The notes beneath the pieces are model-generated. The model saw only the letters and a program-made list of their open reading frames with translations. It was not told the DNA's origin and did not search any database. Shown here in pieces: positions 53,010 to 58,228 of a stretch of DNA of 64,000 nt (position 1 is its first letter; every line of letters begins with the position of its first letter). Source of the stretch: an uncultured Gemmatimonadota bacterium (lineage in GTDB: Bacteria; Gemmatimonadota; CAZMKB01; CAZNLH01); the NCBI GenBank assembly GCA_964577985.1, contig CAZOAR010000007.1:659-64658 (forward strand), given 5' to 3'. Both the position numbers and the translations under genes were made by a program.

Positions 53010-53163
53010 TTCGGCCTCCTGTTCGGTTATCAAACTATTTCGAGCCACTCGACTCAAACCGGAAGGGTGCTGCTTCGAAGCCAGTCATGGCAAACAGCGA
53101 GAACGTATGCCCTTGACGCGCGCGATGTTGCACGAACCGGTACCTATAGTTATATTTCTGTTC

Positions 53164-53508
53164 ATGAAGCTCATGCTGCGCTGGATATTAAACGCGGTCG
53201 CACTGCTTGGAGTCGCCTGGGTCATGTCGGATCACGGTGTGGAGTTGACGGGAATCGGCGCGGCGCTCAAGGCCGCTCTCTTCCTCGGGGTCATCAACGC
53301 GCTTATTAGACCGCTGGTTATCCTCTTCACCCTGCCGATCAACATCCTGACCCTGGGACTTTTCACCCTCTTCATCAACGCCGCTTTTTTCAGTTTTACT
53401 GCATCTGTGATCGAGGGCTTCAATGTCGCGGGCCTCTGGGCGGCACTCTTCGGCGCGCTCCTCCTGACGATTTTCAGCTCCATCCTCAGTGCCGGGATCA
53501 AGAACTAG
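53164..53508 (+). CDS. Phage-holin-family (YvlD-like, 4 TM) membrane protein
   Basis: LRWILNAVAL, GVINALIRP, TLPINILTLGLFTLFINA. Confidence 0.88.
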   Translation: MKLMLRWILNAVALLGVAWVMSDHGVELTGIGAALKAALFLGVINALIRPLVILFTLPINILTLGLFTLFINAAFFSFTASVIEGFNVAGLWAALFGALLLTIFSSILSAGIKN

Positions 53509-56289: not shown

Positions 56290-57090
56290 CTATGGCTTCT
56301 TCCCTCCCTCTCCGGCGAGTTCTCTTGCCTTCAGATACATGAGTCGCGCCTGTTCCGGCATCCTCTTCTTGTCGAAAAGGATGCCCAGACTGTAATACGC
56401 CTTCGGGTTGTTAGGCCGTGCCCTCAGCGTCCTCTCGAAGGCCCCGATCGCCTCGTCACACATGTCTAGCTGATTGTACGACTCGCCCAGATAGTAATAC
56501 GCCGTAACATACTCCGAGTTTATTTCGAGTGACTTCTTCAGCTGCTCTATGGCATCCCTGTAGAGCCCCTTCTTGCAATACACAATTCCCAGGTTACAGA
56601 GCACCTCCGCGCTTCCCGGTTCTATCTGCATGGCTCTTTTCAGTTCCGATTCCGCCTTCGCGTACATCCCCTTCTCACCGTAAATCGCGGCGAGATTCGA
56701 GCGGATCTGGACATTATCCTGGTCGAGTTCGAGGGCTCTACGGTATTCCTTGATCGCCATGTCCTGTTCGCCCATCCTGTCGTAGGTAAAGCCGAGGTTG
56801 TTGTGCGCCTTGAGGTTCGACGGATCAAGCCTTATCGTCTCCAGGTATTCCCTGATGGCTTCCCTGAATTGTCCCTCGTTGGTGCGGGCGAGAGCGTTCT
56901 GGTAGTGCTCTTCCGCGGACACACCATTGTCCTCGCGCTCTTCCTCTTCGACCGTGAACGGCGGCTTTCCGGGATTATCCGGAGGATCGTCATTCTCGCC
57001 CGAAGATATCTTCCTGTTCTCCAGACCCTCCAGCAGGTCCTGGATCTTCTCGAGGGGGTCGTCCCCAATCGCCTTTTTCTTCCTCGACAT
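56290..57090 (-). CDS. TPR-repeat protein with basic N-terminal peptide and acidic linker
   Basis: About six TPRs (AHNNLG, NLAAIY, CNLGIVY, YYYLGESY, YYSLGIL); N-terminus MSRKKKAIGDDPL. Confidence 0.88.
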   Translation of the reverse strand: MSRKKKAIGDDPLEKIQDLLEGLENRKISSGENDDPPDNPGKPPFTVEEEEREDNGVSAEEHYQNALARTNEGQFREAIREYLETIRLDPSNLKAHNNLGFTYDRMGEQDMAIKEYRRALELDQDNVQIRSNLAAIYGEKGMYAKAESELKRAMQIEPGSAEVLCNLGIVYCKKGLYRDAIEQLKKSLEINSEYVTAYYYLGESYNQLDMCDEAIGAFERTLRARPNNPKAYYSLGILFDKKRMPEQARLMYLKARELAGEGGKKP

Positions 57091-57820
57091 CGTCCACTCT
57101 CCGTACTAACTTCATGAAATCCCTGGCGCCATTTGAATTGGGCGCAAATTCAAAGATCGTCTGGTGATAACTGATCGCTTCTGAAAGCCTGACGTTGGAT
57201 CGGATCGGATCGGAGACGCGGTCCCCGAAATGCCACTGCAGGACCTTCAGTATCTCCTTGCTCTTCCGGTGTCTCTTATCGTACAACGTCGGGATGACCA
57301 GTTTGATCTCCGGCATAACTCCTTCGGTGTCCACGACATCCCCGACGCCTTCGACAACCTGCCGTATCCCGATCATCGACAGATAGTCCATCGACACAGG
57401 CATGAAGACCTCGGCCGCGATGGTCACGGCGAAGCGGCTGAGGTAGCTCCACGAAGGAGGGCAGTCCATCAACACGTAATCGAACGTCTCTCCACCAATC
57501 GATCCATCTCTCTCGATGTCTCTCCACCAGGTAGACTCGACCCTGCCGTGTATATCGCTCAGACGCCTGTCACCGGGGAGAAGAAAGAAGTTCTCCCTCA
57601 CCTTGTACACCGCCCTGGCTGTATCTTCCGTTCCGGAAATCAGATCAAACAAGCTTATGTCGTGGGTCACATCGAACCATATCGAGAGCGCTCCCTGTGG
57701 ATCGAAGTCGACCATCAGCACTCTCCTACCCTCAAGCACCAGGCCGGCCGCCAGATTTCCCACTGTCGTAGTCTTTCCGGTGCCTCCCTTCTGATTTATC
57801 ACAGCGATACTTCTCACCAT
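56990..57820 (-). CDS. ParA/Soj-family ATPase (no adjacent parB)
   Basis: Deviant Walker A NQKGGTGKTT, DFDPQG, MDCPPS, YDKR, IRSNVRLSEA. Confidence 0.92.
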   Translation of the reverse strand: MVRSIAVINQKGGTGKTTTVGNLAAGLVLEGRRVLMVDFDPQGALSIWFDVTHDISLFDLISGTEDTARAVYKVRENFFLLPGDRRLSDIHGRVESTWWRDIERDGSIGGETFDYVLMDCPPSWSYLSRFAVTIAAEVFMPVSMDYLSMIGIRQVVEGVGDVVDTEGVMPEIKLVIPTLYDKRHRKSKEILKVLQWHFGDRVSDPIRSNVRLSEAISYHQTIFEFAPNSNGARDFMKLVRRVDDVEEEKGDWGRPPREDPGPAGGSGEQEDIFGRE

Positions 57821-58149
57821 ACACTCTCGTCTTCCCCCAATTCTCCCGTCGCCCACTTGATATATTCTTCCAGGCCGTCCGCCACAGGCAGGACGAGAAG
57901 TTCGGGGATGTCATAGGAATGAATCTCCCGGAGCCTCCTTTTCAGTCGCTCGATCACAGCTTCACCGCTCTTGATGATCAAAAGGGATTCACTCTCATCC
58001 TCGATCGCTCCCTTCCATCGATAAATCGACCTGACGGCGGGGATTATGTTGACACACGCGGCAAGCCGCTCTTCCAGGAGCGTACGCGCGATCTTTTCTC
58101 CCTCTTCTTCTCCACTTACTGTAACAAAGGCCACTCGAAGGTCGTCCAT
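57814..58149 (-). CDS. cutA: Divalent-cation tolerance protein CutA
   Basis: LAACVNI, SIYRWKG, HSYDIPE. Confidence 0.93.
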   Translation of the reverse strand: MDDLRVAFVTVSGEEEGEKIARTLLEERLAACVNIIPAVRSIYRWKGAIEDESESLLIIKSGEAVIERLKRRLREIHSYDIPELLVLPVADGLEEYIKWATGELGEDESVW

Positions 58150-58228
58150 TTCCGTTCCAGAGCTCCCGTGCGCCATCGTTGTCACGAATCAGAAAGATCG
58201 CCTGTGCGCTCTCATCACGCATCCCGGG

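What the first reader, a model, noticed from the sequence alone, without database searches (positions are those of the whole stretch)
56290..57820. Orphan ParA plus a TPR partner with a ParA-activator-like N-terminal peptide: candidate new cargo-positioning system
Seen: a ParA/Soj ATPase with signature Lys and the two basic positions corresponding to Soj non-specific DNA binding (YDKR, NVRLSEA), with no parB nearby. The next gene starts MSRKKKAIGDDPLEKIQDLL, then a ~35-aa acidic/Pro-rich linker, then about six TPRs. Known: ParA/MinD partners (Spo0J/ParB, SopB, MinE, McdB) use a short basic N-terminal peptide to stimulate the ATPase and a C-terminal domain to hold cargo. Inference: the TPR array is the cargo adaptor of an undescribed nucleoid-guided positioning system for a protein complex.
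Basis: partly seen in the sequence, partly recalled or inferred. Interest (0 to 1): 0.7.

Follow-up and report, generated by a model that had tools for sequence, protein, structure and literature searches.

The report
ParA ATPase with a TPR partner
In a lineage of uncultured Gemmatimonadota, a ParA-type positioning ATPase is always followed not by a DNA-binding ParB but by a tetratricopeptide-repeat protein that starts with a ParB/ParG-like "tag", so it looks like a ParA system re-wired to an unknown protein cargo.

Summary
Window 56990-57820 (-) encodes a Soj-like ParA. Window 56290-57090 (-) encodes a cytoplasmic protein with a basic N-terminal peptide, a disordered acidic/Pro-rich linker and six TPRs. 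No ParB motif was found in the 64 kb.

The pairing is not unique. Eleven loci, the named ones Gemmatimonadota MAGs, with ParA 43-100% identical, keep the order cutA-parA-TPR. All carry the N-terminal motif [KR]n-A-[IVM]-G-x-D-P-L.

- Two TPR orthologues that follow cutA directly, with no parA, lack the motif.
- The same motif heads non-TPR partners of related ParAs: a 123-aa protein, and an RHH-like 109-aa protein whose plasmid homologues carry the canonical GGLNSLL ParB-type motif at that place.
- It resembles the ParF-binding tail of ParG (KKMTFGENRDLERVV).

So the peptide is very probably the ParA-binding tag. The cargo is unknown: the TPR domain is near-consensus and gives no clue.

The first 22 partner codons evolve in the partner frame. 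The last 8 appear to evolve in the ParA frame, giving a conserved ParA tail G-E-Q-x-E-I-F.

Verdict: a new variant of a known kind. No binding or function has been shown.

The parts
57814..58185 (-). cutA (CutA1, PII-like trimer family). It is the conserved upstream neighbour, and its stop overlaps the parA start (ATGGTGA).
   Evidence: Pfam CutA1 116.8 bits. cutA precedes parA-TPR in L005, L006, L165-L167, L171 and L086. It directly precedes the TPR orthologue in the parA-less loci L002 and L003.
56990..57820 (-). parA: Soj-like ParA/MinD-family ATPase of 276 aa (core residues 1-245 plus a 31-aa acidic tail).
   Evidence: Pfam AAA_31 and CbiA above threshold. Best PDB match is Tth Soj 1wcv, E=1e-32. 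AF2 model has pTM 0.77 with residues 246-276 disordered. Twelve homologues at 66-82% identity have the same length.
57767..57790 (-). Deviant Walker A, KGGTGKTT (residues 11-18), with signature Lys K11.
   Evidence: Read directly from the sequence. Aligned with KGGVGKTT of Tth Soj.
57272..57274 (-). R183 (in YDKR), equivalent to the non-specific-DNA-binding Arg of Soj (Tth R182 / Bsu R189). It is followed by the basic cluster HRKSK.
   Evidence: Alignment to 1wcv. Residue equivalence stated in PMC5393062. Nearly invariant in alignment A1.
56990..57090 (-). 101-nt overlap of parA (frame a) and the partner gene (frame a+1), apparently coding in both frames.
   Evidence: Substitution pattern by codon position. 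Chance that the ParA frame stays open, given the partner peptide and local codon usage, is 0.05-0.28 per genome.
57002..57022 (-). Conserved end of the ParA tail, G-E-Q-E-D-I-F (residues 267-273; consensus G-[EG]-Q-x-[EDG]-I-F).
   Evidence: IF is present in all 12 clade ParA proteins (one has EEHEEIF). FF replaces it in the related DNA locus L085. Partner codons 23-30 show the ParA-frame substitution pattern, e.g. the partner's S/L alternation is a synonymous TTC/TTT Phe in ParA.
57099..57102 (-). GGAG Shine-Dalgarno-like sequence 8 nt upstream of the partner ATG, inside parA.
   Evidence: Read directly from the sequence. Conserved in all eight aligned DNA sequences.
56290..57090 (-). Partner gene: 266-aa cytoplasmic protein made of an N-terminal tag, a disordered linker and six TPRs.
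   Evidence: Orthologues sit downstream of parA in 10 other loci.
57031..57084 (-). N-terminal tag RKKKAIGDDPLEKIQDLL (residues 3-20). Family motif is [KR]n-A-[IVM]-G-x-D-P-L; G9, D11 and P12 are invariant.
   Evidence: Alignments. Evolves under purifying selection in the partner frame (nt divergence p1 0.18, p2 0.06, p3 0.37). AF2 predicts a helix at 14-20.
56917..57015 (-). Acidic, Pro-rich disordered linker (residues 26-58; net charge -6). Its length varies from about 35 to about 170 aa among orthologues.
56308..56916 (-). TPR domain (residues 59-261): 13 helices, i.e. six TPRs plus a capping helix, with consensus-like repeats.
   Evidence: Pfam TPR_11/TPR_1/TPR_2 and others. AF2 pLDDT >95. 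Foldseek top hits are designed consensus TPRs (36% id), the OGT TPR domain and MamA.

Best explanation
**What it is.** This is a chromosomal, vertically inherited two-gene ParA module. It is usually preceded by cutA. In it the ParA partner is a TPR protein instead of a centromere-binding ParB.

**Proposed mechanism.**
1. ATP-bound ParA dimers bind the nucleoid non-specifically through R183 and the adjacent basic cluster.
2. The partner's N-terminal tag (basic residues, then A-I-G-x-D-P-L-E-K-I) folds into a short helix. It inserts at the ParA dimer interface as the ParG, ParB, MinE and McdB tails do. This stimulates ATP hydrolysis and release of ParA from DNA.
3. The long disordered linker gives reach.
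4. The six-TPR domain binds an as yet unknown protein, or the partner itself multimerises. That body is then moved or spaced along the nucleoid by the usual diffusion-ratchet.

**Shown here.**
- The gene pair, its conservation and the motif.
- Purifying selection on the tag in the partner's reading frame.
- Absence of the tag where parA is absent.
- Presence of the tag on non-TPR partners of related ParAs.

**Inferred, not shown.** Binding, ATPase stimulation, DNA binding and the existence of a cargo.

**Likely origin (inference).** The module probably came from a type Ib, plasmid-like parA plus small-partner cassette. The nearest ParAs outside the clade sit in mobile-element contexts.
For: 1. 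**Conserved pair.**
   - parA is followed at once by the TPR gene in the window, L005, L006, L165-L168, L085, L171, L004 and L086. ParA identity in these loci is 100-43%.
   - L005 and L006 are Gemmatimonadota MAGs.
2. **The tag is the best conserved part of the partner outside the TPRs.** G9, D11 and P12 are invariant in 13 sequences. Substitutions fall mainly on partner-frame third positions.
3. **Co-occurrence with parA.** TPR orthologues in L002 and L003 follow cutA directly, have no parA, and start MGRRNNRGKKRG / MARKRGKSKKERE without G-x-D-P-L.
4. **The tag goes with the ParA, not with the TPR.**
   - L174: ParA 46% identical, then a 123-aa non-TPR protein starting MNETSDRRAIGHDPFADM.
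   - L088: ParA, then a 109-aa RHH-like protein starting MSNKDNRKMGTDPLAWI. Its plasmid homologues, next to plasmid parA, start MSKKNFTGGLNSLLG / MAKKSFSGGLNSLLG.
   - L172: ParA 46% identical, in a plasmid- or phage-like context, then an 88-aa RHH-like protein starting VSKKRTGESLKDLF.
5. **Likeness to ParG.** The ParG tail is KKMTFGENRDLERVV (sequence confirmed in 1p94). PMC5393062 reports that residues 15-23 bind ParA as a helix in the dimer interface and that Gly16 cannot be replaced without a clash.
6. **General rule.** Partners of ParA/MinD ATPases bind through a positively charged, disordered N-terminus (PMC10241942, PMC11407121 and bioRxiv 10.1101/2025.05.22.655647).
7. **ParA features.** It is Soj-like, keeps the R189-equivalent Arg and has no C-terminal amphipathic membrane helix.
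8. **No ParB.** No ParB motif was found in the window.
Against: - No experiment and no complex model exist. The structure tool takes single chains only.
- The Arg finger of ParG (R19) has no counterpart in the tag. A Pro lies near that place.
- R211 of ParA is not conserved, and one close homologue has Thr for the signature Lys.
- The absence of the tag without parA rests on only two loci. At 37-39% identity their orthology rests on synteny with cutA and on shared architecture.
- No cargo gene is evident. The TPR domain is generic.
- The family is small and confined to uncultured Gemmatimonadota. Searches with the peptide alone found nothing more.
- Whether these genomes also have a canonical parAB could not be checked.
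Confidence: 0.55

Rival explanations
1. The TPR protein regulates or anchors ParA and is not a cargo adaptor. It uses the tag to switch ParA off or to hold it at a site such as a pole or the division plane. ParA would then act on something else, for example the chromosome through a distant ParB, or division-site choice as MipZ and PomZ do. CutA, a PII-like protein, might feed a signal into it.
For: - The cutA-TPR adjacency is older than, or independent of, parA: in L002 and L003 the two genes overlap stop to start.
- One related ParA sits between ftsA and ftsZ (L173).
- TPR domains are common scaffolds.
- No cargo genes are linked.
Against: - The tag is of the kind that activates ParA turnover in ParG and ParB.
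- No division or polarity genes lie in the conserved block.
- Nothing here separates 'adaptor' from 'regulator'.
Confidence: 0.2
2. This ParA is simply the organism's chromosome-partition ParA, or a fixed remnant of an integrated plasmid par cassette. The TPR gene would be an unrelated neighbour whose basic N-terminus is coincidental.
For: - ParA is closest to Soj among solved structures.
- The whole block SAM_HAT ... cutA-parA-TPR-(metC)-purD is syntenic within the lineage, so adjacency alone could be inherited gene order.
Against: - The genes overlap by 8 to 101 nt in every locus.
- The tag is under purifying selection.
- The tag is absent where parA is absent.
- The tag recurs on other partners of related ParAs.
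- No ParB was found within 64 kb.
- The nearest outgroup ParAs have small non-ParB partners.
Confidence: 0.1
3. The basic N-terminus of the TPR protein binds DNA or membrane directly and has nothing to do with ParA.
For: Residues 1-8 carry a +4 charge.
Against: - The invariant residues are G, D and P, not the basic ones.
- The segment after the basic patch is strongly acidic, -5.
- The parA-less orthologues keep the basic patch but not G-x-D-P-L.
Confidence: 0.05

Closest known systems
ParF-ParG of plasmid TP228 (type Ib partition; also named ParA-ParB of TP228)
   Same: - A small Walker-type ParA is followed by a partner whose flexible N-terminal tail binds the ATPase dimer.
- The tail sequences are alike: KKMTFGENRDLERVV against RKKKAIGDDPLEKIQ. 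Both run basic pair, hydrophobic residue, essential Gly, acidic residues, L-E-[KR]-[IV].
- The nearest outgroup ParAs have RHH-like small partners.
   Different: - The partner's body is a six-TPR domain, not a ribbon-helix-helix centromere binder.
- No centromere is evident.
- The Arg19 'finger' is missing, and the spacing after the Gly is one residue shorter.
- The module is chromosomal, vertically inherited and linked to cutA.
Chromosomal Soj/ParA-Spo0J/ParB (ParABS)
   Same: - ParA is most like T. thermophilus Soj. It has the signature Lys and the R189-equivalent Arg.
- In homologous plasmid partners the ParB-type N-terminal motif (hydrophobic-G-x-G-L-x-x-L-L) occupies the place of the tag.
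   Different: - There is no ParB (HTH/CTPase) gene and no ParB box motif in 64 kb.
- ParA scores far below the NCBIfam ParA_partition cut-off (89 against 180 bits).
McdA-McdB (carboxysome positioning)
   Same: - A ParA-type ATPase is paired with a non-DNA-binding partner.
- The partner's first 20 or so residues, with key lysines, are necessary and sufficient for the interaction, and the rest of the protein holds a protein cargo (bioRxiv 10.1101/2025.05.22.655647; PMC11407121).
   Different: - McdA is a weak PDB match: 6noo, E=5e-11, over the N-terminal half only.
- The partner is a folded TPR solenoid, not the McdB type.
- No carboxysome genes are nearby.
PomXYZ of Myxococcus xanthus (PomX N-terminal peptide activates the ParA-like PomZ)
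   Same: An N-terminal peptide of a scaffold protein activates a nucleoid-bound ParA-like ATPase. This comparison rests on my own knowledge and was not tested here.
   Different: PomX is a coiled-coil scaffold that marks the division site. There is no sequence relation, and no division genes are linked here.
MamA (magnetosome TPR protein)
   Same: It is the best NCBIfam hit of the TPR domain (109 bits) and a good Foldseek match.
   Different: - The score is below the family cut-off of 200 bits.
- The likeness is that of any consensus-like TPR: designed CTPR proteins score higher.
- No magnetosome genes are present.

Membership tests
ParA/MinD (deviant Walker A) ATPase family | Deviant Walker A xKGGxxK[ST] with signature Lys, and the P-loop NTPase fold of Soj/MinD. 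| tested here: met
   KGGTGKTT is present. Pfam AAA_31 scores 110 bits against a cut-off of 27, and CbiA 69 against 25. Tth Soj matches at E=1e-32 over residues 2-248. The AF2 model has pTM 0.77.
ParA-like (nucleoid-binding) branch as opposed to MinD-like (membrane-binding) | Basic residues for non-specific DNA binding (Bsu Soj R189 equivalent) and no C-terminal amphipathic membrane-targeting helix. | tested here: inconclusive
   R183 aligns with Tth R182 (= Bsu R189) and is nearly invariant. The C-terminal tail is acidic (-8) and disordered, so it is not an amphipathic helix. R211 is variable. DNA binding itself is not testable here.
Chromosomal ParABS | Adjacent parB (HTH plus ParB/Srx CTPase domain; box II GERRxRA) and parS sites. 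| tested here: not met
   The downstream gene is a TPR protein. No ParB box I/II or LG[RK]GL motif occurs in any frame of the 64-kb window. parS was not searched for.
Type Ib plasmid partition (ParF/ParG-like) | A small partner with a flexible N-terminal ATPase-activating tail. | tested here: inconclusive
   A tag with ParG-like sequence is present and conserved, but the Arg finger is absent. Activation is not testable here.
Type Ib plasmid partition (ParF/ParG-like) | The partner body is a ribbon-helix-helix centromere-binding dimer, and the module sits on a mobile replicon. | tested here: not met
   The partner body is six TPRs. The locus is a conserved chromosomal block.
NCBIfam ParA_partition (NF041546) and other named ParA equivalogs | Score at or above the curated cut-off. 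| tested here: not met
   The score is 89.4 bits against a cut-off of 180. All other equivalogs are also far below their cut-offs.
McdAB carboxysome positioning | McdA/McdB pair linked to carboxysome genes. | tested here: not met
   McdA (6noo) matches only residues 3-147, at E=5e-11. No carboxysome genes occur in the conserved neighbourhood.
MamA | NCBIfam NF040959 score at or above 200 bits. | tested here: not met
   The score is 109 bits.
TPR repeat proteins | Tandem 34-residue helix-turn-helix repeats. | tested here: met
   Pfam TPR_11, TPR_1, TPR_2 and others are well above threshold. AF2 gives 13 helices with pLDDT >95. Foldseek matches CTPR and OGT TPR domains.

The most novel reading that the evidence does not exclude
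The same 100 nt would encode two reciprocal docking elements in two reading frames: the partner's ParA-binding tag, and ParA's own conserved acidic tail ending G-E-Q-E-E-I-F. On this reading the ParA tail is a ligand for the partner's TPR groove, in the manner of the Hsp70/Hsp90 EEVD tails that bind TPR co-chaperones. ParA and its partner would then hold each other by two contacts, and the overlap would lock their co-evolution and perhaps their expression ratio. The cargo would be a protein body of Gemmatimonadota not yet known to be positioned, possibly linked to CutA.
Probability: 0.1. Interest if true: 0.8.

Novelty: new variant of a known kind. Interest (0 to 1): 0.55.

Why it matters
ParA/MinD ATPases position chromosomes, plasmids, carboxysomes, chemoreceptor arrays, flagella and the divisome. 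Many remain 'orphans' because their partners are too diverse to recognise (PMC10241942).

- **Recognising partners.** Here a partner can be recognised from sequence alone, by a short tag shared with plasmid ParG/ParB-type proteins. The tag is attached to a generic protein-binding TPR module. This would be a natural example of the 'luggage tag plus adaptor' design that the field wants to engineer.
- **A search handle.** The motif [KR]n-hydrophobic-G-x-D-P-[LF], placed directly after parA, could be used to find further non-canonical partners.
- **The overlap.** The dual-frame overlap is a small but unusual case of two interacting proteins sharing coding sequence.
- **Limits.** The lineage is uncultured, the cargo is unknown and nothing has been tested at the bench.

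Tried and rejected
- **Partner protein search.** A full-length search gave mostly unrelated TPR proteins. Only P0001, P0003 and the P0011 group were orthologue-like. The 450-aa and lipoprotein TPR families among the hits have unrelated N-termini.
- **Metagenome scan.** It added only L085-L088 as useful loci.
- **Peptide-only searches.** The tag profile against the 5.8-billion-protein set returned only fragments of L086- and L088-like loci. The 47-aa tag against 1.84 billion representatives returned only a fragment of an L085-like locus. phmmer against the PDB found nothing. A tag this short cannot be mined with these tools.
- **L088 partner.** Pfam scanning gave no family. Its RHH nature is inferred from sequence pattern and from its plasmid homologues.
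- **Foldseek of the TPR model.** It gave only generic TPR matches, so there is no clue to the cargo.
- **AF2 of ParA alone.** The tail does not dock back on the monomer (pLDDT about 33). This neither supports nor excludes a tail function.
- **Programmed frameshift making a ParA-TPR fusion.** Considered and rejected. The A-rich stretch in the window (GAAGAAAAAGG) is not a canonical slippery site and is not conserved in L005 and the others.
- **ParA extension as a pure by-product of the conserved partner peptide.** Considered and not excluded. Against it: all 12 clade ParAs end within a few codons of each other, the per-genome chance of an open frame is 0.05-0.28, and the substitution pattern flips in codons 23-30. 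The flip is only suggestive (Fisher p=0.07), and the sequences are related to one another.
- **Promoter and terminator scan.** It gave only chance-level consensus hits. A promoter-like site at 59191-59163 (-) lies upstream of the SAM_HAT gene, and there is no minus-strand terminator down to 55000. This is compatible with co-transcription but is weak evidence.
- **Expression.** No RNA runs hold this sequence, so expression could not be checked.
Full report
**1. What is there.**

Window 56290-57820 holds two minus-strand genes.

parA runs from 57820 to 56990.
- Its ATG (MVRSIAV...) overlaps the stop of cutA (57814-58185) as ATGGTGA.
- The product has the deviant Walker A KGGTGKTT.
- It passes the Pfam AAA_31 and CbiA thresholds but reaches no NCBIfam equivalog cut-off. 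ParA_partition scores 89 bits against a cut-off of 180.
- Its best solved relative is Thermus thermophilus Soj (1wcv, E=1e-32, residues 2-248).

- R183 (YDKR) pairs with Tth R182. PMC5393062 gives R182 as the equivalent of the DNA-binding R189 of B. subtilis Soj.
- R211 (NVRLSEA) pairs with Tth R211, but it is Ser in 4 of 12 close homologues.

The next gene runs from 57090 to 56290.
- It starts MSRKKKAIGDDPLEKIQDLL, with a GGAG 8 nt upstream and in-frame stops just before the ATG.
- AlphaFold2 gives residues 1-53 as disordered apart from a short helix at 14-20.
- It gives a very confident solenoid of 13 helices at 59-261, which is six TPRs plus a cap.
- The linker (residues 26-58) has net charge -6.

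A six-frame motif scan found no ParB signature and no second ParA in the 64 kb.

**2. The pairing is conserved.**

The ParA has 12 homologues at 66-82% identity. Below that there is a gap to 49% or less.

I read the DNA of eleven loci: the window, L005, L006, L165-L168, L085, L171, L004 and L086. ParA identity in these runs from 100% down to 43%.

- In every one, parA is followed at once by an orthologue of the TPR gene.
- The block is usually SAM_HAT-(NTP transferase-MBL hydrolase-NUDIX)-cutA-parA-TPR-(metC)-purD.
- L005 and L006 are Gemmatimonadota MAGs.
- The window sequence occurs in hydrothermal-vent and microbial-mat metagenomes.

All eleven partners begin with the same motif:

| Locus | N-terminus |
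|---|---|
| window | MSRKKKAIGDDPLEKIQDLLEGLE |
| L005 | MSRKRKAMGSDPLEEIQDLLKGLE |
| L171 | MAKKKKAVGSDPLQEIDLLIRDL |
| L004 | ...SGRKAVGHDPLADL |
| L086 | ...RRKELSAVGADPLDAL |

G9, D11 and P12 are invariant. A7 and L13 are nearly so. The linker that follows varies freely in sequence and in length, from about 35 to about 170 residues.

**3. The tag goes with ParA, not with the TPR domain.**

Two TPR orthologues have the same C-terminal architecture and ending, at 37-39% identity.
- They lie directly after cutA, overlapping its stop, with no parA (L002, L003).
- They start MGRRNNRGKKRG... and MARKRGKSKKERE... without G-x-D-P-L.

Conversely, related ParAs outside the clade have non-TPR partners that carry the tag or a close variant.
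- L174: ParA 46% identical, beside transposase genes, with a 4-nt overlap. The partner is a 123-aa protein starting MNETSDRRAIGHDPFADM.
- L088: ParA followed by a 109-aa protein starting MSNKDNRKMGTDPLAWI, with an RHH-like C-terminal half.
- L172: ParA 46% identical, between a restriction-modification system and a phage-type replication gene. The partner is an 88-aa RHH-like protein starting VSKKRTGESLKDLF.

Plasmid homologues of the L088 protein lie next to plasmid parA in Tenacibaculum and Flavobacterium. They begin MSKKNFTGGLNSLLG and MAKKSFSGGLNSLLG. That is the ParB-type motif hydrophobic-G-x-G-L-x-x-L-L, at the place of G-T-D-P-L-A-W-I.

The ParG tail of TP228 reads KKMTFGENRDLERVV. I confirmed the sequence against PDB 1p94. 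According to PMC5393062, residues 15-23 bind the ParA dimer interface as a helix, Gly16 tolerates no other residue, and Arg19 may act as an arginine finger.

The Gemmatimonadota tag, RKKKAIGDDPLEKIQ, shares several features with that tail:
- the basic pair;
- the hydrophobic residue before the Gly, and the Gly itself;
- the acidic residues, and L-E-[KR]-[IV].

It is one residue shorter after the Gly. It has Pro where the Arg would fall.

Reviews and recent work state that ParA/MinD partners in general bind through a positively charged, disordered N-terminus. For McdB, 20 residues with one key lysine suffice.

**4. The overlap.**

In the close clade the parA ORF runs about 100 nt into the partner gene. 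All 12 ParAs are 273-276 aa where full length, against about 245 aa for the outgroup. In the outgroup the stop overlaps the partner start by only 8 nt.

Geometry: ParA codon position 3 is partner codon position 2.

In eight aligned DNA sequences, mean pairwise nucleotide divergence by codon position is as follows:

| Partner codons | Partner p1 (= ParA p2) | Partner p2 (= ParA p3) | Partner p3 (= ParA p1) |
|---|---|---|---|
| 2-22 | 0.18 | 0.06 | 0.37 |
| 23-30 | 0.06 | 0.29 | 0.15 |

- In codons 2-22 the pattern is that of the partner frame. The partner peptide is also much better conserved than the ParA-frame peptide (amino-acid divergence 0.22 against 0.46).
- In codons 23-30 the pattern flips to that of the ParA frame.
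- There the ParA peptide G-E-Q-x-E-I-F is better conserved than the partner's L-E-x-K-K-x-S-[SL].
- For example, the partner's Ser/Leu alternation is a synonymous TTC/TTT Phe in ParA.

Given each partner peptide and local codon usage, the chance that the ParA frame stays open to that point is 0.05-0.28 per genome. Yet all clade members keep it open and stop within a few codons of each other.

The flip rests on eight codons (Fisher p=0.07) and the sequences are related, so it is suggestive only. The tail is acidic (-8) and predicted to be disordered. I could not test whether it binds anything.

**5. Mechanism proposed.**

Shown: two co-inherited, overlapping genes, and a selected N-terminal tag that tracks ParA.

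Inferred from family knowledge:
- ATP-bound ParA dimers coat the nucleoid.
- The tag helix enters the dimer interface and triggers hydrolysis and release.
- The TPR domain carries a protein body that is thereby spaced or segregated.

The cargo is unknown.
- The TPR domain is near-consensus. Its top Foldseek hits are designed CTPR proteins at 36% identity, then the OGT TPR domain and MamA.
- The MamA model scores 109 bits against a cut-off of 200.
- The only persistently linked gene is cutA, which stays next to the TPR gene even without parA. CutA is therefore a candidate partner or regulator. This is inference only.

**6. Rivals.**

- The TPR protein is a regulator or anchor of ParA, not an adaptor. 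This cannot be separated from the main reading here.
- The ParA is a housekeeping or relic ParA with an unrelated neighbour. This is disfavoured by the overlaps, the selection on the tag and the co-occurrence.
- The basic peptide binds DNA or membrane. This is disfavoured because the invariant residues are G, D and P.

**7. Comparison and novelty.**

It works most like a type Ib ParF/ParG module and like McdAB. [quoted passage not shown] It is not a member of ParABS, ParFG, McdAB or any NCBIfam equivalog.

Four full-text literature searches (one found nothing) and three papers read turned up no ParA system with a TPR partner. I therefore rate it a new variant of a known kind.

The limits are plain:
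- The lineage is small and uncultured.
- There is no experimental or complex-model support.
- The cargo is unknown.
- The negative-control set has only two loci.

Noticed in passing
window 56990-57090 (-); L005, L006, L165-L168, L085: parA overlaps the partner gene by about 100 nt in the close clade. The last 8 or so overlapped codons appear to be selected in the ParA frame, giving a conserved ParA C-terminal motif G-E-Q-x-E-I-F. More distant relatives (L171, L004, L086) have a 245-aa ParA with only an 8-nt overlap.
   Followed up: partly
L002 5631-6948; L003 5667-7020: In two relatives without parA, cutA is directly followed by the TPR orthologue, with an overlap of 8-14 nt. The cutA-TPR link therefore does not depend on ParA. 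CutA, a PII-like protein, may be functionally tied to the TPR protein.
   Followed up: partly
L173 2692-5954 (Bipolaricaulota MAG): A ParA 42% identical to this one sits between ftsA and ftsZ in the dcw cluster, with no obvious small partner. The FtsZ there has a long acidic N-terminal extension.
   Followed up: no
L001 1294-2453 (JGI contig identical to the window region); L165-L168: The public gene calls are wrong or inconsistent here. On L001 parA was not called; an antisense 228-aa ORF was called instead, and cutA was truncated to 53 aa. The partner's start is called at four different places in L165-L168, often removing the tag. Database copies of these proteins are therefore misleading.
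   Followed up: yes
alignment A1: P0125; P0124, P0126, P0127, P0129: One close ParA homologue has Thr in place of the signature Lys (NQTGGTGKTT). Four have Ser in place of R211 (NVSLSEA).
   Followed up: no
L174 4001-5154; L172 4001-4976; L088 1025-2172: Related ParAs in mobile-element contexts have small partners whose N-termini form a graded series between the ParG-type and the G-x-D-P-L-type tag: RRAIGHDPFADM, KKRTGESLKDLF, NRKMGTDPLAWI. This suggests a wider, unnamed tag family among type Ib-like systems.
   Followed up: partly
window 53057-49863 (-), 53100-53508 (+), and the neighbourhood in L165-L168: Downstream of purD the conserved block continues with a PF04020 (Phage_holin_4_2) small membrane protein on the opposite strand. 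After it come a large CarboxypepD_reg/Plug outer-membrane-receptor-like protein and an ECF sigma factor. These are ordinary and were not examined further.
   Followed up: no
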